The translations under genes were made by a program, and so were the position numbers. The notes below the pieces were generated by a model. The model saw only the letters and a list, made by a program, of their open reading frames with translations. It was not told the origin of the DNA and did no database searches. A stretch of 64,000 nucleotides of DNA from Dictyostelium discoideum (lineage: Eukaryota): positions 5,696,001 through 5,760,000 of the forward strand of contig CM000151.3 in assembly GCA_000004695.1 (NCBI GenBank). The letters are read 5' to 3'. This document shows, piece by piece, positions 8,327 to 63,868 of the stretch (positions within the stretch are counted from its first letter, which is position 1; each line of letters begins with the position of its first letter).

Positions 8327-9555
8327 TTTTAAAAAAATAAATTATTATTATTTATAATTTAAATTAGGAGATTTTGAAAAAATAAAAAAAAAATAAAAAA
8401 ATTATTAATTAATTTTATTTTATTTTTTATAATTATTTATAATTATTATTATTATTATTATTATTTATTTGAATTTTATTTATACAATGTATTGGTATTG
8501 GTTATGTACAAAAAAAAAAAGTGATTGATTTTTTTTTTTTTTAATTATTTTTTTTTTTTTTGATTTTTTTTTTTTTTTTTGATTGTTATTTTTTTTAATT
8601 AATTTTGTTAAATAAAAAGTGACCTAGTGTAAGTAAGTGATGAAAAAAAAAAAAAAAATTAAAAGAAAAAATTAAATTTTATTAATATGAGAAAAAAAAA
8701 ATTTATATAAATTTATATAAAAAAAAAAAAAAAACTCAAAAATAACCAATCAAAATTATGTTCATAAATCTCTGATGGATCTAAATTTTTTGCGGGCTTG
8801 CTTTGGTTACTAAATCAAAAAAAAAAATAAAAAATAAATGAAAAAATAAAAAAAAAAAAAAAAAAATATTCATAAAAAAAAAAAATTAAATTAAATTAAA
8901 AAAAATTTTGTGTCTACACAGAAAATAGAAAAAAAAACAATGGATAAAAAGGTCACATTAACATCTTTGGACAATTTTTTTTTTTTTTTTTTTTTTTTGA
9001 TTAATTTTTTTTTTTTTTTAAATGAAAAATTTAATGGGGAAAAATTGTAGTAAATTGATTTTTTGAAAATATTATTTTTTTTTTTTTTAAATTGTTTAAA
9101 TAGTGGTGTTGTAGATCATTGGAAATGTTTTGAAAACTGAAAAAAAAAAAATTTTATTTTTAACAATAATCTACTAAAAAAAAAAAATCACCTTTTATTA
9201 AACAATAAAATATGGTAATTTTATTTACAATCGAGATTTTAAGAATTTACAAATTTTTTTTTTAGGTTTTTTTTTATAATTTTTTTTTTAAATCATTTTT
9301 TTTTTTTTATTATTATTTTTTTTCTTTTTTTTTGAAATTTTATTTTTGGTGGAGATTAATATAAAAAAAAAAAAAAAAAATGAATGACTTCTATAGATTT
9401 ATTATTACCTCTATTTTTTTTTTAATATTATATATAAATATATATTTATTTGATATGAATGTATGTTTTTTTTTTTTTTTTATTTTTATTAAAAAATTTG
9501 GGGTTTCAAAAAATTTATATTGAAATTCTTTAAAATGAATTTACTGTTTTTGATT

Positions 9556-9588
<33 letters not shown>

Positions 9589-10354
9589 ACTGTTTTTTTT
9601 TTTATTATTTTATTATAATTTTTTTTTTTTATTTATTTATTTATTTATTTTTTTTATTTTTTTTTTTTTTTGTAATCTTTTTTATTTTTCAAATATATAA
9701 TGAATTTATGATAGCATATTATCTGATAACAGTAGTTGAATATAAAAATAAATATACTTTTGGTTTTTATATTTTTTTTTTATTTTATTTTTATTTTTAT
9801 TTTTTATTTTTTATTTTTTTTTTTTATTTTATTTTTATTTTTATTTTTGTTTTTTATATTTACCATATAAAGATTTAATATATGGCAGTGGGTGTGAGAT
9901 GTTTTTTTTTTTTTTTATTTTTGGGTGTTTTTTTTTTATTTCAAAAGTTATGTGAAACAACGAATACATATTGGCAATAATAGGAATAATGAATTTAATT
10001 ATTGGTATTTTTATGAGGGGCGATCAATTTGGAAAAAAAAAAAAAAAAAAAAAAATGCAATAACAACACTAACCCCACATTCCAAACATTTATTATATTA
10101 ATAAAATTAAAAAAAGGCAATATATCTGTTGCTATTGAATAGTAATTATTATTTATATTATGGTAAAAATAAAAAAGCGAGAATGTGACTCGCATGATAT
10201 TTTTTTCCTTTTTTTTTGATAAAAAAAAAAAAATAATAAAATAAAAACTTATATATCTCAATTATAAATAAAAAAAATCTATTTTTAGAATCATTTACTC
10301 CACATACACATACAAAAATATCTTTATTTATTGTGAATTTACATTCACATGAAA

Positions 10355-10403
<49 letters not shown>

Positions 10404-10416
10404 TTTTTTATTATTA

Positions 10417-10448
<32 letters not shown>

Positions 10449-10670
10449 TTTATTTTTATTATTATTATTACTATTATTTACTATGTATTTATATTATATT
10501 ATTTTAATTTAATTTAATTGAGAATGGGAGAGAGTGAGGGGGAGTTTTTTTTTTTATGTGAGTTTTTTTTTTTTTTTTTTTTTTTGTGTGGTTTGTGAGT
10601 GGTTGGGTGTGCATTTTGGATGTGTTGAATTTATTTGTTGTATCGAATGATATAAATATATAATAACTTT

Positions 10671-10704
<34 letters not shown>

Positions 10705-28704: not shown

Positions 28705-29192
28705 ATGTCAGATATTATTGCAAGAGGTAACGTCGAAAACGGTGACAAACTTTTCAAAGCAAGATGTGCTCAATGTCACACCACTGCTAATGTAAGTTTA
28801 CTTTTTCTTTTTCTTTTTTTTTTTAATAATCAAATAAAATCTTAAAAAAATAAAAAAAATAAAAAAAATAAAAAAACAAAACCCACACATATTTATTAAA
28901 ATATGATCATGTGCGATATTTTTATTTATTTTTAATTTATCTTTTTTTTTTTAATTAAACAAAAGGAAATAAATAAATATTAATGTCCATAAAAAAAAAA
29001 AAAAAAAAAAAAAAAAATAGGGTGCACCAAACAAACAAGGTCCAAATCTTTACGGTTTATTCTTTCCTAAATCACGTTCCTTCCCTGGTTATGCCTACTC
29101 TGACCCCAACAAAAACACTGGAAAGTTTTGTTTTATTCATTACTTATAAATTTTCATTTTTTTCCTTCCATCAAAAAGGATAATTATCCACG

Positions 29193-29267
<75 letters not shown>

Positions 29268-29465
29268 AACCAAAATACAAACGATACTAATTAGGACGAA
29301 AATAATTTTAAAATAATAGGTATCATGTGGGGTGAACAAACTCTCTTTGATTACTTAGAAAATCCAAAGAAATACATTCCAAAGACTAAAATGGCCTTTG
29401 CTGGTTTCAAATCTGAACAAGATAGAGCTGATGTTGTCGCTTACCTTGAACAATCAACTAAATAA
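28705..29465 (+). CDS. cytC: Cytochrome c (111 aa); join(28705..28791,29021..29119,29320..29465)
   Basis: Heme-binding CAQCHT, conserved GPNLYGLF..., [36 protein letters not shown] (Met ligand). Intron 1 is 229 nt (GTAAGT..AG). Intron 2 (29120..29319) reads GAAAGT...AG, i.e. non-canonical (see findings). Confidence 0.85.
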
Positions 29466-35968: not shown

Positions 35969-37150
35969 ATGGTCATCAAAACTACAACCACTACTAAATC
36001 TGCCCCAACAAAATCATCAACTAAAACAGCAGCAACCACTCCAGTTGTTGAAGGTGCAACCACTCCAGTTGCTAAAATAGTTGTAAAGAAAACTACTGCA
36101 ACATCTGCATCAGCACCAACACCAGCAACCAAAGCAACAACAACTAAAAAAACCACTACCACAACTAAAGCAACAACAACTAAAGCTAAAGAAGCAGAAC
36201 CAGTTGAAGTTTATGAAGAAATGAAAAAGATGACACCAATTGAACCACCACACTCAATTAAAATTAATTATTTTAAGAAATCAATTTGTGCAAAGATTAC
36301 ACTTCATAAAATTCCAGATAAATTTATTAATTTACATCCAACCTCAACTAAATTCCATATTGATACATTAAAATATACAAAGAGATTCCTTTTAGATATT
36401 CCATATCCTGAAAATGTCGTTGTTGATGATGAAAAAGCAACTTGTACATTTGAACATGATATTTTAACAGTTTTCATTCCAATTATTTCTGAATTAAAAG
36501 AAAAAACCAATAGTAATAATAATAATAAAAATAACAATAAAAAAGTAAATAATAAAAGAAAACAACAAGAAGTTGAAGAAGAAGAAGAAGAAGAAGAAGA
36601 AAAAGTAGAAGAAAAACCAAAAAAAGTTATTAAAAAACAAAAAGTTTCAAATAAAACTGAAGAACAAAAAGAAAAAGTTGAAGAAGAAGAAAAAGTTGAG
36701 GAAGAAGAACAATCAGAAACTACCACTACCACTCAAAAGAAAAAGAAATTCATTAGCAATGATTCAACAATTGATATTATGAAACAAATTTCTGAAGAAC
36801 AAGAGAAAAAAGCTAATCAAAAAATTACTCAAGAAAAGAAAAAGACTCAACAATTACAATCTAAAGAAGTTGAAAAACAAACAAAGAAAAAGAATGTTGT
36901 AGAGAAAAAGAAAACAATTTTAAAGAAATTAAAAGGTGAAGAAGAACAAGAACAAGAAAAAGAAGAAGAGAAACCAGTTGTAGCTAAAACTACAACCACA
37001 ACTAAAAAATCTGTTTCAAAGAAACCAAAAACTCAAGTTGAACAACCATCAGAAGAACAAACTACCCCAAGTAAAAAATCAGTTTCATTTGGTGAAAAAG
37101 TTAATGTAAAACATATTCCAAAAGTTGGAAAAGGTAATAAATTAAATTAA
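35969..37150 (+). CDS. CS-domain (p23/PIH1-CS-like) protein with T/A/K-rich N-terminus and K/E-rich C-terminal half (393 aa)
   Basis: Real ATG at 35969. Segment IEPPHSIKINYFKKSICAKITLHKIP...FHIDTLKYTKRFLLDIPYPENVVVDDEKATCTFEHDILTVFIPI has the beta-sandwich CS/PIH1-CS pattern. The domain call is tentative. Confidence 0.5.
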   Translation: MVIKTTTTTKSAPTKSSTKTAATTPVVEGATTPVAKIVVKKTTATSASAPTPATKATTTKKTTTTTKATTTKAKEAEPVEVYEEMKKMTPIEPPHSIKINYFKKSICAKITLHKIPDKFINLHPTSTKFHIDTLKYTKRFLLDIPYPENVVVDDEKATCTFEHDILTVFIPIISELKEKTNSNNNNKNNNKKVNNKRKQQEVEEEEEEEEEKVEEKPKKVIKKQKVSNKTEEQKEKVEEEEKVEEEEQSETTTTTQKKKKFISNDSTIDIMKQISEEQEKKANQKITQEKKKTQQLQSKEVEKQTKKKNVVEKKKTILKKLKGEEEQEQEKEEEKPVVAKTTTTTKKSVSKKPKTQVEQPSEEQTTPSKKSVSFGEKVNVKHIPKVGKGNKLN

Positions 37151-37171
37151 ACAACAAATTTAACAAACTAG

Positions 37172-37224
<53 letters not shown>

Positions 37225-37591
37225 AAATAAACAATTTTTTAATTAAATATAATATTGAATATTTTAAAATATATATTTTTTTATTTATTTAATTTAAAAA
37301 TAATTTGGTAGTAATTAAGTAAGTCTTACCAAAACTCACATTAAATCTGGAAATAAAAATGGGTGCTATCTTTGACTATTTTAACTAATACCAAAGTTAC
37401 CTCTTTTTTTTTTAAAATAAAAAATAAAATAATATACAAATGAATCACCATTAGGAACTTAACTAAAAAATAAATATATAAATAAATAAATAATAAAAAA
37501 AAAGTTGATACATTATTTTAAAATCAAATCCCAAAAAATTTTTTTTTTTTTTTTGAATGGAAAAAATAATAAAAAAAAAAATAAAAAAAAA

Positions 37592-37633
37592 TAAATTATT
37601 CAGGTTTATCAGAAAAAAAACCTGAATAATTTA
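37592..37633. promoter_or_regulatory. Perfect 13-bp inverted repeat TAAATTATTCAGG-(16 nt)-CCTGAATAATTTA about 60-100 bp upstream of the EGF-like gene ATG
   Basis: Directly visible. Candidate promoter palindrome. The degenerate copy B retains only one half (cctgataaaattt). Confidence 0.4.
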
Positions 37634-37693
37634 TTTTTTTTTTTTTTTTTCTCATCAAATTTTTCACTCTCACATCTTATACACACAGACAAA

Positions 37694-38524
37694 ATGAAAA
37701 TTTTATTATTACTATTTTTAATAGTTTTATTAAATGTTTCTTTCACAATGGCTTGGGAAGAAAGTGGTGAAACATATTATCCAGTATACCCACCAGGCAG
37801 TAAAAAATGTCATAATGATTGCAATTATCAACCATATCTTTGTTACAATGGTATTTGTTCATGTCCTTATGGATACAATCTTAATCCATACGATTGCAGT
37901 GATAAATGTTATTATGCAGGTAAGATAATCTTTAATAATAATAAATAATAATAAATAATAATAAATAATAAATAATAATACTAATAGTAATAATTTAATA
38001 CTACTACTACTACTTTAGGTTGTACAAAATCTATAGATTCAATTAGTGATACCACTCTTAAAGGTGGACCAATTACTTTATTAGGATGGTTTGATAATGA
38101 TTATTCATCAATTTTTATCACTGTTGATGGTGTTAATTGTCCAATTTATTCAAATTCTTCAACAAGTGTAACTTGTTTAGCACCAAAAATCGGTGGTTCA
38201 ATGAACCCACATTTATATATAGTAGAAACTACATTCACTGATAGCAATAATAACACAATGATGGAAATATTTAAAACAGTTAGTTATAATTCCACAAATT
38301 GTTTAAATCAATGCTCAGGTGTTGGTTCATGTGATGAGAATGGAAATTGCAATTGTTTATCTGGTTACTCTGGTGAAGATTGTAGTATTATTCCATCACC
38401 AGCTCATTCATCCTCATCATCATCACCAACTGATAAAGGTTATTTTACAATTCAAATCACTCCATTTACTTTAATTTTATTATTCATTTTCATTTTAATT
38501 ACTATAATTACTTCAAAAAAATAA
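37694..38524 (+). CDS. Secreted/type-I membrane protein with signal peptide, Cys-rich module, EGF-like module and C-terminal TM; join(37694..37919,38019..38524)
   Basis: Real ATG at 37694. Signal peptide MKILLLLFLIVLLNVS. Exon 1 is Cys-rich (CHNDCNYQPYLCYNGICSCPYGYNLNPYDCSDKCYYAG). Donor G|GTAAGA (phase 1), 99-nt intron, acceptor ...tactttag. Exon 2 contains CLNQCSGVGSCDENGNCNCLSGYSGEDC (EGF-like) and a C-terminal hydrophobic anchor. Confidence 0.7.
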
Positions 38525-38689
38525 AATAAAAAAAGTAGAATCAAACAAACAAACAAAAAAACAAACAAACAATCAAACACTTATGTAACATATTTAATAA
38601 TAATAAATAATAAATAATAAATAATAATATTAATAATAATAATAATAATAATATCTATTTATTATATTACAACAATTTATTTATTTTGT

Positions 38690-38830
38690 ATTTTAATGAA
38701 TATAATTTAATTTATTAAAACAACCCTTTTTAAGTTTCATTTGATATTAATTGTGATTTATTAAATTGTAATTTTAATTGATTATATTTTGATAGTACCT
38801 ATTCTACAATTTGGATCAATATTTATAAAA
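38690..38830 (-). pseudogene. Fragment of the SNARE gene (equivalent to 39420..39470 joined directly to 39719..39817; about 250 bp of CDS deleted)
   Basis: 38722..38820 is about 92% identical to 39719..39817 (internal SNARE CDS). 38690..38740 matches the SNARE 3' end/flank 39420..39470. It is part of copy A of the tandem duplication. Confidence 0.6.
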
Positions 38831-39109
38831 AATTATTTGAATATCTCAATTTTTGAAATTTAAAATAAAAAAAAAAAAAAAAAAAAAAGGTGAGGATAAA
38901 ATATAAAAAATAATAAAAAGAATAAAAAAATAATAAAATAAATAATTGAATCAAAATCTCCATCATCACCATCATTAGGAACTTCACTAAATTAAACTGA
39001 TTTTAAAAAATAAGTATCTTAGTTTTAAAGTAAATAAAGTTTTAATTAATTAATTAATAAATTAATAAATTTTAAATTAATTACTTTTGTTAAAAAAATA
39101 AATAAATAA

Positions 39110-39144
<35 letters not shown>

Positions 39145-39237
39145 TTTGGTGATCGTCATCATAAAATCAAATCTCAATTTTTTTTTTTTTCTTCAAGTTT
39201 TTTTCCTGATAAAATTTCCTTTTTTTTTTTTTTTCTT

Positions 39238-39400
39238 TTCTCATCAATTTTTCACTCTCACATCTTATACACACACACACACAGACAAAATGAAAATTTT
39301 ATTATTACTATTTTTAACAGTTTTATTAAATGTTTCTTCAAGATAATCTTATTCACCAATTTCTATCAATATTGTTGTTAATTGCCCAATTTATTTATTT
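39238..39400 (+). pseudogene. Degenerate remnant of the EGF-like gene: 5' flank + start codon + signal peptide + a fragment of exon 2 only
   Basis: 39238..39335 is about 93% identical to 37651..37745 (ctcatcaa.tttttcactctcacatcttatacacaca...gacaaaatgaaaattttattattactatttttaa.agttttattaaatgtttc). It then jumps to an exon-2 fragment (..gttgttaattgcccaatttatt matches 38130..38155). The ORF 39146..39346 ends after the signal peptide. Confidence 0.65.
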
Positions 39401-39438
39401 ATTTATTTATTTATTTTATTTTAATGAATGCAATTTTA

Positions 39439-40097
39439 TTAAAACCACCTTTTTGACATTTTATCAATAGTTTTGGGAGATTTGTCAATATTCGCATCTA
39501 TTGAATCGAATTTTTTATCCATATTTTTCATTTGTTCAGTTTGAGAATGTAATGTATTTGAAAGATCTGTTGCTAAAGTTGTCATTGATGATATTTCTTG
39601 TCTAGCTGATTGAATCATTTTTGTGTTATTATCCATCATTTTATTAAGATTTAATATTTTTTCTCTTGTTTCATTTGTGGATGAGTTGAAATTTGTTGAT
39701 TGATTATTACTATTATTATTAAAAGTTTCATTTGATATTAATTGAGATTTATTAAATTGTAATTTTAATTGATCATATTTTGATAGTACAACTCTACAAT
39801 TTGGATCATTATTTATATTATTATTTATATTATTATTATTATATTCTAATTTCAATAATGATATATCATTTTCTACATTTTCAAATAATTTTTTAATTTT
39901 CTCTTTATTATTACAATTGTTTTTTAATTCATTTTCAATATTTGAAAGTGTTTCATTAATTTCTTCAATATAGGAATTTAGAATATAACTCTTTTAAAAA
40001 AAAATGAAAAATAAAAAATAAAAATAAAAATATTAGTATTAATATTATGGATTAAAATAATAATTAGAATAATAATAATAATAAAAAATTATACCAT
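39439..40097 (-). CDS. SNARE-motif protein (Qb/Qc type, about 190 aa) with no C-terminal TM found; join(39439..39990,40095..40097)
   Basis: The ORF-track start at 39855 is a TTG and the frame stays open up to the acceptor ttttaaaag| at 39991. The only upstream ATG is followed immediately by GTATAA, giving a single-codon first exon (ATG|GTATAAT..., 104-nt intron). The heptad SNARE motif carries a central Gln: ...MIQSARQEISSMTTLATDLSNTLHSQTEQMKNMDKKFDSIDANIDKSPKTIDKMSKR. Confidence 0.5.
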
Positions 40098-40112
40098 TAA
40101 TAAATTTGTTTG

Positions 40113-40150
<38 letters not shown>

Positions 40151-40588
40151 TATGGTAGTTAATTAATTATTTTAAAAAGATGGTTTTATAAAAGATATTG
40201 ATTGATCATTAATATATTATTTTGAATAGTTTGGTTTATAAATTAAATTAAAATTAAAATTAAAATAAAAAAAAAAAAAAAAAATTAATAAAACAGGTGT
40301 TCTGTAACACCCGCTGTAAAATTGAAAAAAATTCAGTGAAAAATAAAAAAAATAAAAAAAAATAAAATAAATTAAAAAAAATAAAATAAAATTGAAAAAA
40401 AAAAAAAATTTAAAAATTATTTTTTAAATATTTCGACTTATTACACAAACACACGCCTATAATTCATTATTTATTATTCCACCTTTTTTTTTTTTTTATT
40501 AATTAATAACCTATATAAAAATAACACACATATAACAATACACATATAATACACGTATAATACACTTTTTTTTTAAAAAAAAAAACAA

Positions 40589-63677: not shown

Positions 63678-63868
63678 AAAAAGGTTAATTTTTTTTTTTT
63701 TTTTTTTTAATATAAATTAAAGAACTAAGTTTTTTAATAAAATAAATAAATATAATTTTTTTTCTTAAAAATTATTTGAATATATATAGGTACAATTAAT
63801 TAAATTTAGTATTTCATAAATAAAATTTTAATTTTTATTATTTATTTTTTATTTAAAAATATTTTTAA

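What the first reader, a model, noticed from the sequence alone, without database searches (positions are those of the whole stretch)
37592..40097. Tandem segmental duplication of an [EGF-like gene -> SNARE gene] unit, with each copy keeping a different gene
Copy A (about 37600..38830) has an intact 2-exon EGF-like secreted protein gene. The convergent SNARE gene in copy A survives only as a roughly 140-bp fragment at 38690..38830, carrying an internal deletion of about 250 bp of CDS. Copy B (about 39238..40097) has the reverse pattern. Its EGF-like gene is a deletion-riddled remnant: 5' flank, ATG and signal peptide at 39238..39335 (about 93% identical to 37651..37745), plus one scrap of exon 2. 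Its SNARE gene is intact. About 92-93% identity between copies suggests a fairly recent duplication. The two copies have undergone complementary gene loss. The degenerate pieces could still produce a truncated signal peptide or antisense transcripts over the live SNARE 3' end.
Basis: seen in the sequence. Interest (0 to 1): 0.7.

Follow-up and report, generated by a model that had tools for sequence, protein, structure and literature searches.

The report
Half-erased old tandem duplication in Dictyostelium
About 1.7 kb of Dictyostelium discoideum chromosome 2, holding a fast-evolving surface-protein gene and the tail of the neighbouring SNARE gene, was copied in tandem long ago; deletions have since reduced the extra copies to stubs in the AX4 reference, which is ordinary gene birth and death, well documented here because a sister lineage still has the second gene intact.

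Summary
The repeats are real. Four collinear direct blocks link 37631-38837 to 39220-39822, and the two best score 137-143 bits against at most 43 for any unrelated hit in the 64-kb window. The window is D. discoideum AX4 chromosome 2. The genes are EAL69634 (a TIG/EGF membrane protein, 243 aa) and DDB_G0275765 (a Vti1-like SNARE with no membrane anchor, 184 aa).

D. citrinum (two assemblies), D. dimigraforme and D. firmibasis have one EGF gene, with the SNARE stop 112-241 bp beyond it. That is the unduplicated state. A divergent 'D. discoideum' isolate (locus tag ACTFIW) has the same SNARE relic, with the same 268-bp deletion and junction, but its second EGF gene is intact where AX4 has a stub.

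- **Age.** The duplication is old. The intact copies differ by about 15% (dS 0.13-0.18), against 5.6% (dS 0.07) between the lineages. The 94-97% blocks are simply slow-evolving sequence.
- **SNARE copy.** It was most likely truncated at birth by a breakpoint inside the gene, so the loss is not truly reciprocal.

The relics look neutral and dead. This is an ordinary kind of event and a tidy example of it.

The parts
37432..37693 (+). Copy A upstream region and 5' flank of the live EGF-like gene. It holds the anchors 37446-37467 and 37519-37557, and an AX4-specific hairpin at 37596-37635.
   Evidence: Collinear weak matches to 38945-39219. The five-copy alignment with ACTFIW units U1-U3 shows two orthology groups, A/U1 and B/U2/U3.
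37694..38524 (+). Live EGF-like/TIG type I membrane protein gene (copy A; EAL69634, 243 aa). Exon 1 is 37694-37919, the intron 37920-38018, exon 2 38019-38524.
   Evidence: The spliced ORF equals XP_643496/Q553C4. The Pfam EGF and TIG hits fall just under their cut-offs.
38525..38674 (+). 3' flank of EGF copy A. AATAAA hexamers lie at 38520/38525 and 38602-38616, before the SNARE relic.
   Evidence: 92.7% identical to the ACTFIW orthologous flank.
38675..38837 (-). SNARE relic of copy A. It is the 3' flank, stop and last codons (38675-38730) fused to mid-CDS (38732-38837). It lacks 268 bp of CDS, has a frameshift and stops, and has no 5' third.
   Evidence: six-frame reading. The same deletion junction and the same end occur in ACTFIW at L006 8976-9080. 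It evolves like flank DNA: 93.9% identical between AX4 and ACTFIW plus a 15-bp indel, against 98% for the live gene.
38838..38944 (.). Duplication junction: the right breakpoint in SNARE exon 2 joined to the left breakpoint upstream of EGF. It is A-rich low-complexity sequence, so the exact breakpoints cannot be resolved.
   Evidence: No significant match beyond low complexity. Orthologous junction in ACTFIW at L006 9081-9200.
38945..39219 (+). Copy B upstream region. Anchors lie at 38970-38991 and 39140-39196.
   Evidence: Collinear with L006 upstream of the intact second EGF gene.
39220..39395 (+). EGF-like gene relic (copy B). It comprises the 5' flank 39220-39289, the ATG at 39290, an 18-codon ORF 39290-39346 and an exon-2 scrap 39342-39395. 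Relative to copy A it lacks 350 bp (37743-38092) and 524 bp (38151-38674).
   Evidence: It maps to the intact ACTFIW gene U2: 39220-39340 <-> L006 ..9517 and 39342-39395 <-> L006 9882-9939. The second deletion is flanked by the 9-mer CAATTTATT.
39396..39438 (-). 3' flank of the live SNARE gene, with poly(A)-signal hexamers on the minus strand. It abuts the EGF relic.
   Evidence: 100% identical to ACTFIW.
39439..40097 (-). Live SNARE gene DDB_G0275765 (EAL69633, 184 aa). Exon 1 is the ATG alone (40097-40095), the intron is 40094-39991, and exon 2 is 39990-39439.
   Evidence: The spliced translation equals P0004. Pfam V-SNARE_C scores 31.1 bits against a cut-off of 27.1. Its relatives include Vti1-type proteins.

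Best explanation
This is the eroded remains of an old tandem duplication.

**Ancestral layout.** This layout is still present in D. citrinum, D. dimigraforme and D. firmibasis. One TIG/EGF membrane-protein gene converges on a Vti1-like SNARE gene, with their stop codons 112-241 bp apart.

**Step 1, duplication.** It happened in the D. discoideum clade, after the split from D. citrinum and before the split of the AX4 and ACTFIW lineages. A segment of about 1.7 kb was copied head to tail. The segment ran from about 260 bp upstream of the EGF start codon to a point inside SNARE exon 2.
- Unit 1 received a complete EGF gene plus a SNARE piece that had only the 3' two-thirds of the gene, so it was dead on arrival.
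- Unit 2 received a complete second EGF gene and the original complete SNARE.

**Step 2.** A 268-bp deletion shortened the SNARE relic. It also predates the lineage split.

**Step 3, AX4 lineage.** Two deletions destroyed the second EGF gene. One is flanked by the 9-bp direct repeat CAATTTATT, which suggests microhomology-mediated repair or slippage. What remains is the 5' flank, an 18-codon signal-peptide ORF and a 54-bp exon-2 scrap. In the ACTFIW lineage the second gene stayed intact and a third, heavily deleted unit is present.

**Shown:** the blocks, the unduplicated outgroups, the intact second copy, the shared junction and shared deletion, the tree and the divergences.

**Inferred:** truncation at birth, the molecular mechanism (unequal exchange or template switching in AT-rich low-complexity DNA), and that the relics have no function.
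For: - **Repeat blocks and their significance:**
- **Gene identity:**
- **Unduplicated state:** D. firmibasis L002, D. citrinum L003 and L004, and D. dimigraforme L005. EGF-stop to SNARE-stop spacers are 133, 112, 241 and 176 bp, against 914 bp in AX4.
- **Not an assembly artefact:** an independent long-read assembly, L001, differs from AX4 in 37150-40150 only by A-run lengths and one SNP.
- **Intact second copy:** ACTFIW L006 has two intact EGF genes (249 and 245 aa, all cysteines kept), the relic and a third remnant. AX4 38801-39340 is collinear with L006 9052-9517, 39342-39395 with 9882-9939, and 39397 onward with 10878 onward.
- **Shared history:** the same 268-bp deletion junction (AACC[C/T]TTTTTAAGTTTCATTTG) and the same relic end are present in both lineages.
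- **Tree:** the NJ tree gives ((AX4_A, FIW_U1) 100, FIW_U2) 100 with D. citrinum outside.
- **Divergence:** dS is 0.068 for the orthologues, 0.13-0.18 for the paralogues and 0.44-0.48 against D. citrinum.
- **Relic decay:** the relic evolves at the rate of flank DNA (93.9%), against 98% for the live SNARE. It has stops in all frames.
- **Deletion mechanism:** the CAATTTATT microhomology sits at 38142-38150 and 38675-38683.
Against: - Only one divergent lineage with an intact second copy could be retrieved.
- Both duplication breakpoints lie in A/T-rich low-complexity DNA and cannot be placed to the base.
- Truncation at birth rests on parsimony. A once-complete SNARE copy that lost its 5' third before the lineage split cannot be excluded.
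- It is undecided whether ACTFIW's third unit is ancestral or lineage-specific.
- Two sites just upstream of the ATG are shared by both AX4 copies but by neither intact ACTFIW copy. This hints at a short gene-conversion tract, and conversion could also distort the tree locally.
- No expression data were available, so 'non-functional' is inferred from sequence decay alone.
Confidence: 0.85

Rival explanations
1. A recent duplication (about 7% divergence) copied the complete two-gene unit, and reciprocal loss followed: copy A lost its SNARE and copy B lost its EGF gene.
For: The two best blocks are 94-97% identical. Each unit retains a different live gene.
Against: - The duplication, relic, deletion and junction are shared with a lineage whose orthologous CDS is 5.6% diverged.
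- The intact paralogues are about 15% diverged.
- The high-identity blocks are intrinsically slow-evolving sequence. The other two blocks are only 81-82% identical.
- No trace of the SNARE 5' third exists in copy A in either lineage. The only candidate was an inverted 19-mer, and it is at chance level.
Confidence: 0.07
2. The relics are retained because they act. The copy-B stub keeps a working promoter that drives antisense transcription across the live SNARE, or the SNARE relic yields RNA complementary to SNARE mRNA. Either would feed the Dictyostelium RNAi machinery.
For: - The stub keeps its 5' flank, ATG and signal-peptide codons, 96.9% identical to ACTFIW U2.
- There is no AATAAA on the + strand from 39290 to 40010, so a transcript started there would cross SNARE exon 2 in antisense.
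- 96 nt of the relic are 94% identical to SNARE CDS.
Against: - The relic diverges at the neutral flank rate and has suffered a further 15-bp deletion in ACTFIW.
- The arrangement differs between lineages: ACTFIW has a whole gene plus a third unit in the place of the stub.
- EGF-A has poly(A) hexamers before the relic.
- There are no expression data, and no paper mentions these genes.
Confidence: 0.07
3. The similarity is chance or low-complexity matching in AT-rich DNA, or a mis-assembly of the AX4 reference.
For: The region is about 80% A+T, and many 60-75% 'matches' appear under permissive scoring. The upstream anchors are not significant on their own.
Against: - The partner blocks score 3-4 times higher than any other hit in 64 kb.
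- None of 100 shuffles reach the observed count.
- An independent long-read assembly has the same structure, and ACTFIW has the orthologous structure.
Confidence: 0.01
4. The duplication predates the D. citrinum split and was cleanly lost in D. citrinum, D. dimigraforme and D. firmibasis. In this view the discoideum-clade copies look like sisters only because of concerted evolution.
For: There is a hint of a short conversion tract upstream of the ATG in AX4. The locus is deletion-prone.
Against: - It needs three or more clean independent losses that leave 112-241 bp spacers with no relics.
- U1 and U2 are sisters with 100% bootstrap over the whole CDS.
- Paralogue dS is about a third of the dS to D. 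citrinum.
- Diagnostic A/U1 versus B/U2 differences persist, so conversion is at most local.
Confidence: 0.03

Closest known systems
Tandem segmental duplication with a breakpoint-truncated partial duplicate, followed by pseudogenisation (birth-and-death evolution of gene duplicates). This comparison rests on established knowledge, for example surveys of young duplicates in C. elegans and Drosophila.
   Same: - Direct, adjacent, collinear copies.
- One breakpoint inside a neighbouring gene, giving a fragment that was dead on arrival.
- The redundant complete copy was later removed by deletions, one of them flanked by microhomology.
- An unduplicated state in outgroups.
   Different: Nothing in kind. 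The particular features are the extreme AT-rich setting, which hides the breakpoints, the survival of the intact second copy in a sister lineage, and a third partial unit in that lineage.
Reciprocal (complementary) gene loss, also called divergent resolution, after duplication.
   Different: Reciprocal loss needs both genes to have been duplicated whole. Here the SNARE copy shows no 5' third in any lineage and was probably never complete. The two 'losses' also differ in age and nature: one is truncation at birth, shared by both lineages, and the other is a later deletion specific to AX4.
tgr (TIG-repeat) gene clusters of Dictyostelium, which generate full and partial duplicates and many pseudogenes (PMC12745789).
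   Same: - A secreted or membrane protein with TIG and EGF modules and a C-terminal membrane anchor.
- dN/dS near 1 within the clade.
- Local full and partial duplicates and deletion-riddled fragments that differ between isolates.
   Different: The protein is much smaller (243 aa, one TIG-like plus EGF modules). It is not one of the named tgr families, it sits at a different kind of locus (convergent with a SNARE gene), and its Pfam TIG and EGF scores are below the cut-offs. Membership of the tgr family was not tested.
Vti1-family Qb SNAREs (Pfam V-SNARE plus V-SNARE_C).
   Same: The C-terminal SNARE motif matches V-SNARE_C above its cut-off. Relatives found by exhaustive HMMER search include proteins with the Vti1 N-terminal domain and a membrane anchor.
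   Different: The protein has no transmembrane segment and ends in ...MSKRWF, as do its three closest relatives. Its N-terminal domain does not reach the Pfam V-SNARE threshold. Only 10 relatives at E<=1e-3 were found among 1.8 billion representatives.

Membership tests
Tandem segmental duplication | Two or more homologous blocks, same orientation, same order, adjacent on the chromosome, beyond chance. | tested here: met
   There are four significant collinear direct blocks plus two weak anchors. Partner hits score 51-143 bits against 29-43 for the next best, and 0 of 100 shuffles reach the observed count.
Tandem segmental duplication | An unduplicated orthologous locus exists in related genomes. 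| tested here: met
   D. citrinum (two assemblies), D. dimigraforme and D. firmibasis each have one EGF gene. The SNARE stop lies 112-241 bp after the EGF stop, with conserved flanking genes.
Tandem segmental duplication | The degenerate unit corresponds to a once-complete copy. | tested here: met
   ACTFIW isolate L006 has an intact 245-aa EGF gene (9466-10292) collinear with the AX4 stub.
   The duplication is shared by AX4 and ACTFIW. Paralogue CDS identity is 84-86% (dS 0.13-0.18), against 94.4% (dS 0.068) for the orthologues. The tree has 100% bootstrap support.
Reciprocal / complementary gene loss | Both genes were duplicated as complete genes. | tested here: inconclusive
   For the EGF gene the answer is yes. 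For the SNARE, no sequence homologous to 39860-40097 is found in unit 1 of AX4 or ACTFIW. Truncation at birth is favoured, but an early deletion cannot be excluded.
Reciprocal / complementary gene loss | Each duplicate unit lost a different gene after the duplication. | tested here: inconclusive
   Loss of the second EGF copy by deletions in the AX4 lineage is shown. 'Loss' of the SNARE copy is probably a breakpoint effect plus a later 268-bp deletion.
SNARE protein (Qb, Vti1-like) | A SNARE coiled-coil motif recognised by a curated profile above its threshold. | tested here: met
   V-SNARE_C (PF12352) scores 31.1 bits against a cut-off of 27.1, over residues 121-182. UniRef names the protein a t-SNARE coiled-coil homology domain-containing protein.
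SNARE protein (Qb, Vti1-like) | Vti1-type N-terminal three-helix domain (PF05008). | tested here: not met
   The query has no PF05008 hit. The hit is present in the more distant relatives P0011 and P0015, and just under the cut-off in P0013.
SNARE protein (Qb, Vti1-like) | C-terminal transmembrane anchor. | tested here: not met
   The protein ends ...IDKMSKRWF directly after the SNARE motif, as do P0009, P0010 and (near its end) P0011. P0013 and P0015 have hydrophobic tails.
EGF-like / IPT-TIG membrane protein | EGF and TIG domains above the Pfam gathering scores. | tested here: inconclusive
   All scores are just below their cut-offs: EGF_Teneurin 22.6 against 24.3, EGF_2 18.8 against 22.1, and TIG 18.4 against 20.9. 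The cysteine pattern, signal peptide and C-terminal hydrophobic anchor are conserved in all orthologues.
Processed or unprocessed pseudogene or relic (non-functional) | A disrupted reading frame and a neutral rate of change. | tested here: met
   The SNARE relic has stops in all frames and a frameshift. It is 93.9% identical between lineages plus a 15-bp indel, against 98% for the live gene and 92.7% for flank DNA. The EGF stub has an 18-codon ORF only.
Processed or unprocessed pseudogene or relic (non-functional) | Absence of transcription or function. | not testable with these tools
   No expression data were accessible, and no paper in the library mentions these genes.

The most novel reading that the evidence does not exclude
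The copy-B stub keeps a live promoter. Its own terminator region was deleted, and no AATAAA occurs on the + strand for 720 nt. It would therefore drive a lineage-specific antisense transcript across the whole coding exon of the SNARE gene. In that case a dying duplicate would have become a cis-acting regulator of its conserved neighbour in AX4, but not in the lineage that kept the second gene intact.
Probability: 0.06. Interest if true: 0.5.

Novelty: new member of a known kind. Interest (0 to 1): 0.27.

Why it matters
The main value is as a clean, datable example. One locus shows every stage of duplicate decay across available genomes: unduplicated, two intact copies plus a truncated by-product, and a copy eroded by microhomology-flanked deletion.

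It also carries a methodological warning. Identity measured only on the blocks that are still recognisable (94-97%) badly underestimates the age of a duplication, because those blocks survive recognition precisely because they evolve slowly.

For Dictyostelium annotation, it flags two unannotated relics beside DDB_G0275765. It also shows that the small TIG/EGF gene evolves with dN/dS near 1 and turns over like the tgr genes. It does not open a new biological question unless the relics prove to be transcribed.

Tried and rejected
- **Inverted SNARE piece at the relic end.** I suspected one at 38826-38844 against 39895-39877. It scores 31.0 bits, no better than an unrelated hit at 63767 (31.9 bits), so I rejected it as chance.
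- **Extending the SNARE relic beyond 38837.** I tried to extend it into the N-rich coding repeat, and to place the left breakpoint upstream of 37432. Both regions are only low-complexity similarity, so this stays unresolved.
- **Cheap-gap global alignment of the two units.** It over-fitted many tiny spurious blocks, so I discarded it in favour of BLAST blocks with an empirical null.
- **Gene conversion as the cause of the 94-97% blocks.** It is not needed. The signal-peptide codons are 93% conserved against D. citrinum, and the SNARE block is nearly invariant across species. Pooled relic-to-parent divergence (16/152) fits an old event. Only two sites upstream of the ATG hint at a short tract.
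- **tRNA genes or retroelement targets as the cause.** There are no tRNAs in the window.
- **Retrieving more isolates.**
  - The protein index returned only ACTFIW, two D. citrinum assemblies and D. dimigraforme for the EGF gene, and only D. firmibasis for the SNARE.
- **Literature.** No paper mentions DDB_G0275765, its neighbours or the UniProt ids.
Full report
**What the window is.** The two gene models read from the sequence translate exactly to D. discoideum AX4 chromosome 2 proteins.
- The EGF-like gene is 37694-37919 plus 38019-38524, on the + strand. It encodes EAL69634/XP_643496/Q553C4, an 'EGF-like domain-containing protein' of 243 aa.
- The SNARE gene is on the minus strand: ATG at 40097-40095, intron 40094-39991, exon 2 39990-39439. 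It encodes EAL69633, DDB_G0275765/Q553C3, a 't-SNARE coiled-coil homology domain-containing protein' of 184 aa.
- Pfam supports the SNARE call: V-SNARE_C scores 31.1 bits against a cut-off of 27.1.
- The EGF and TIG hits fall just under their cut-offs: EGF_Teneurin 22.6 against 24.3, and TIG 18.4 against 20.9.
- The SNARE has no membrane anchor and ends in ...MSKRWF. An exhaustive HMMER search of 1.8 billion representatives finds only 10 relatives at E<=1e-3. The closest also end in KRWF, and more distant ones carry the Vti1 N-terminal domain and a transmembrane tail. I call it a Vti1-like, anchor-less Qb-type SNARE.

**Check of the observation.** With standard scoring, BLASTN of 37300-38960 against 38900-40300 gives four direct, collinear blocks.

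| Block | Copy A | Copy B | Identity |
|---|---|---|---|
| 5' flank, ATG and signal peptide | 37631-37742 | 39220-39338 | 108/120; most differences are an 8-bp CA-repeat indel |
| Exon-2 scrap | 38093-38150 | 39342-39395 | 47/58 |
| SNARE 3' end | 38675-38730 | 39405-39454 | 46/56 |
| SNARE mid-CDS | 38732-38827 | 39723-39817 | 90/96 |

- The DNA is about 80% A+T, and permissive scoring yields hundreds of meaningless 60-70% alignments. I therefore used the rest of the window as an empirical null. Each block's partner is its best non-self hit: 137, 50.9, 53.6 and 143 bits, against 42.8, 29.2, 38.3 and 32.8 for the runner-up.
- The 62-nt and 67-nt cores occur exactly twice with up to 3 mismatches. 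None of 100 dinucleotide shuffles reach that count.
- Two weaker anchors, 37446-37467 <-> 38970-38991 and 37519-37557 <-> 39162-39196, are not significant alone. They are collinear, and their homology is confirmed by the extra copies in another isolate.
The relic is 38675-38837, its internal deletion is 268 bp (39455-39722), and the stub ORF is 39290-39346.

**Is it a duplication? Comparative evidence.**
- *Independent assembly.* The SNARE protein is also encoded in an independent long-read assembly labelled D. discoideum (L001, locus tag ACTFIT). Over 37150-40150 it differs from the window only in three A-run lengths and one SNP. That rules out a mis-assembly.
- *D. firmibasis.* The only SNARE homologue in the indexed protein search is from D. 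firmibasis (73% identity). Its locus (L002) has the same flanking genes but a single EGF gene, whose stop lies 176 bp from the SNARE stop.
- *D. citrinum and D. dimigraforme.* Searching with the EGF protein returned two D. citrinum assemblies, D. dimigraforme and a second 'D. discoideum' assembly. The first three loci (L003-L005) again have one EGF gene, with spacers of 133, 112 and 241 bp, against 914 bp in AX4.
- The extra 780 bp or so in AX4 is exactly the SNARE relic, the junction, the copy-B upstream region and the EGF stub.

**The key locus.**
- L006 (locus tag ACTFIW, GCA_054859355.1) is labelled D. discoideum. Over this region it aligns to AX4 at only 86-89% identity, gaps included. 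Counting substitutions only, most segments are 90-98% identical.
- It may be one of the 'possible cryptic species' isolates described in PMC12745789. That is my inference from contig sizes and is not verified.
- It has two intact EGF genes in tandem. U1 starts at ATG 7947 and encodes 249 aa. U2 starts at ATG 9466 and encodes 245 aa. Both keep the same intron position and all the cysteines.
- After them come a third, deletion-riddled unit (U3, about 10347-10700) and the SNARE gene.
- Between U1 and U2 sits a SNARE relic with the same 268-bp deletion junction (AACCTTTTTTAAGTTTCATTTG, against AACCCTTTTTAAGTTTCATTTG in AX4). It has the same right-hand end and the same junction sequence as in AX4.
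- AX4 38801-39340 is collinear with L006 9052-9517, that is, through the 5' flank and signal peptide of U2. AX4 39342-39395 matches U2 exon 2 (9882-9939), and AX4 39397 onward matches 10878 onward. The AX4 stub is therefore what remains of a gene that is still whole in ACTFIW.

**Age.**
- A codon-based NJ tree gives ((AX4_A, FIW_U1) 100%, FIW_U2) 100%, with D. citrinum outside.
- CDS identity is 94.4% for the orthologues AX4_A and FIW_U1, 84-86% for the paralogues, and about 74% against D. citrinum. dS is 0.068, 0.13-0.18 and 0.44-0.48 respectively.
- The duplication is thus two to three times older than the AX4/ACTFIW split and about a third as old as the split from D. citrinum. It is not 'fairly recent'.
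- Why are two AX4 blocks 94-97% identical? The 49 signal-peptide nucleotides are 98% identical among all discoideum-clade copies and 93% identical even to D. citrinum. The SNARE mid-CDS block is nearly invariant in D. citrinum, D. dimigraforme and D. firmibasis.
- Pooling the two SNARE blocks gives 16 differences in 152 positions. That fits a relic drifting at the neutral rate since an old event.
- The relic is 93.9% identical between AX4 and ACTFIW, plus a 15-bp indel. That is like the flank DNA (92.7%) and unlike the live SNARE exon (98.0%).
- Gene conversion is therefore not needed. Two sites just upstream of the ATG are shared by both AX4 copies against both intact ACTFIW copies and one D. 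citrinum assembly. They may mark a short conversion tract, but the site is a CA/A microsatellite, so the evidence is weak.

**Was the loss complementary?**
- The EGF side fits the claim. A complete second gene existed and was destroyed in the AX4 lineage by two deletions. Relative to copy A they are 350 bp (37743-38092) and 524 bp (38151-38674). Relative to ACTFIW they are 364 bp and 938 bp.
- The second deletion joins two copies of the 9-mer CAATTTATT, one in exon 2 (38142-38150) and one in the EGF 3' flank (38675-38683). This is the signature of microhomology-mediated deletion or slippage.
- The SNARE side does not fit. In both lineages the relic stops at the same point inside exon 2 (about 38837-38866 <-> 39822-39860). 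Nothing homologous to the 5' third, the intron or the ATG is present. The only candidate, an inverted 19-mer, is at chance level.
- In a head-to-tail duplication whose right breakpoint lies inside a gene, the first unit necessarily receives only the part of that gene on the near side of the breakpoint. Parsimony therefore says this copy was truncated at birth and shortened later by the 268-bp deletion. This step is an inference, because an early deletion of a complete copy cannot be excluded.

**Mechanism and function.**
- Both breakpoints lie in A/T-rich low-complexity DNA: an N-rich coding repeat on one side and A-runs on the other. Unequal exchange or template switching on short AT-rich homologies is the likely cause, but no specific junction homology can be shown.
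- The SNARE relic has stops in all frames and a frameshift. The stub has an 18-codon ORF.
- EGF-A has AATAAA hexamers at its stop and at 38602-38616, before the relic, so the relic is probably not part of its mRNA.
- The one feature that leaves room for activity is in the stub. It keeps its 5' flank, 96.9% identical to ACTFIW U2, but has lost its own 3' end. No AATAAA occurs on the + strand between 39290 and 40010. If the flank still fires, the transcript would be antisense to the entire SNARE coding exon.
- No expression data or literature on these genes could be found. I give this reading about 6%.

**Comparison with what is known.**
- This is a standard tandem segmental duplication with a partial duplicate at the breakpoint, followed by non-functionalisation. 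The kind is known and this instance is new.
- It resembles the turnover of TIG-repeat tgr genes described for the same set of genomes: many full and partial duplicates and pseudogenes (PMC12745789).
- The EGF/TIG gene evolves with dN/dS of 0.8-1.3 within the clade. Membership of the tgr family was not tested, and the Pfam domain scores are sub-threshold.
- It is not a good example of reciprocal gene loss.

**Open points.**
- It is undecided whether ACTFIW's third unit is a later re-duplication of U2, or whether a three-unit array is ancestral and AX4 lost U2's body plus U3 in one CAATTTATT-mediated deletion. The relevant distances are 77-92% over fewer than 150 bp and do not discriminate.
- More isolates from PRJNA1300491 would settle this, and RNA-seq would settle function.

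**Verdict.** It is an ordinary phenomenon in an unusually complete series. Interest is low to moderate.

Noticed in passing
window 37596-37635: A perfect hairpin, AAATTATTCAGG-TTTATCAGAAAAAAAA-CCTGAATAATTT, sits in the 5' flank of EGF copy A. The loop plus right arm is the exact reverse complement of the 28-nt sequence inferred at this site from copy B, all three ACTFIW units and D. citrinum, which carry close variants of it in the forward orientation (..TTCAAGTTTTTTTTCT[A/G]ATAAA..). It looks like an AX4-lineage template-switch (fold-back) mutation. It is also present in L001.
   Followed up: partly
window 28705-29465 (cytochrome c, exon 2 about 29062-29129): The AX4 cytochrome c gene (Q869N1, 113 aa) carries about 10 substitutions, mostly at G positions, within about 60 nt. 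D. citrinum (two assemblies), D. dimigraforme and D. firmibasis are almost identical to one another there. The conserved GLFGRKSGTVAGYAYSDANKNAG becomes [26 protein letters not shown], and the canonical splice donor is lost. The near-identical isolate L001 has a 110-aa call, like the canonical form. This is either an error cluster in the reference sequence or a real oddity in a very conserved protein.
   Followed up: partly
window 37920-38018; L003 8224-8331; L004 8215-8333; L005 and L002 orthologues: The EGF-gene intron (CAG|GTAAG...AG|GTTG) is present at the same codon in D. discoideum (all copies) and D. citrinum. It is absent from D. dimigraforme and D. firmibasis. That is an apparent intron gain, or two losses, in this small clade.
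   Followed up: partly
L002 10861-12251 (minus strand): The D. firmibasis orthologue is a 463-aa protein with three TIG-EGF modules. The discoideum, citrinum and dimigraforme genes keep only the signal peptide, one Cys-rich module and the last TIG-EGF module. The D. firmibasis annotation also fuses it with the upstream 393-aa gene into an 828-aa model, probably an annotation artefact.
   Followed up: partly
L006 10347-10870: The ACTFIW isolate has a third EGF unit, reduced to the upstream anchor, 5' flank, ATG (10589), two or three exon-2 scraps and the 3' flank. An (AAT)n microsatellite of about 130 bp follows it. Its deletion junctions differ from those of the AX4 stub, so the decay was independent.
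   Followed up: partly
window 37694-38524 and orthologues: The TIG/EGF gene evolves with dN/dS of 0.8-1.3 inside the discoideum and citrinum clades and 0.55-0.63 between them. Constraint is weak or selection is diversifying, while the adjacent SNARE is 98% conserved.
   Followed up: partly
window 37172-37187, 38867-38870, 39112-39119: Apart from one SNP (37223 C>A), the only differences between AX4 and assembly L001 in the 3-kb region are lengths of poly(A) runs, shorter by 16, 4 and 8 A in L001. These may be homopolymer instability or sequencing-platform effects.
   Followed up: no
L001 11562-12338; L006 8001-8795: The new assemblies annotate the EGF gene from an internal Met (225 and 231 aa), which drops the signal peptide. 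The conserved upstream ATG (MKILLLLFL...) gives 243 and 249 aa. The intact second ACTFIW gene (245 aa) was not returned by either indexed protein search.
   Followed up: no
window 39439-40097: In the SNARE gene, exon 1 is the ATG alone, followed by a 104-nt intron. The protein lacks a membrane anchor and ends in KRWF, a C-terminus shared by its few closest relatives. How such a SNARE attaches to membranes is unclear.
   Followed up: partly
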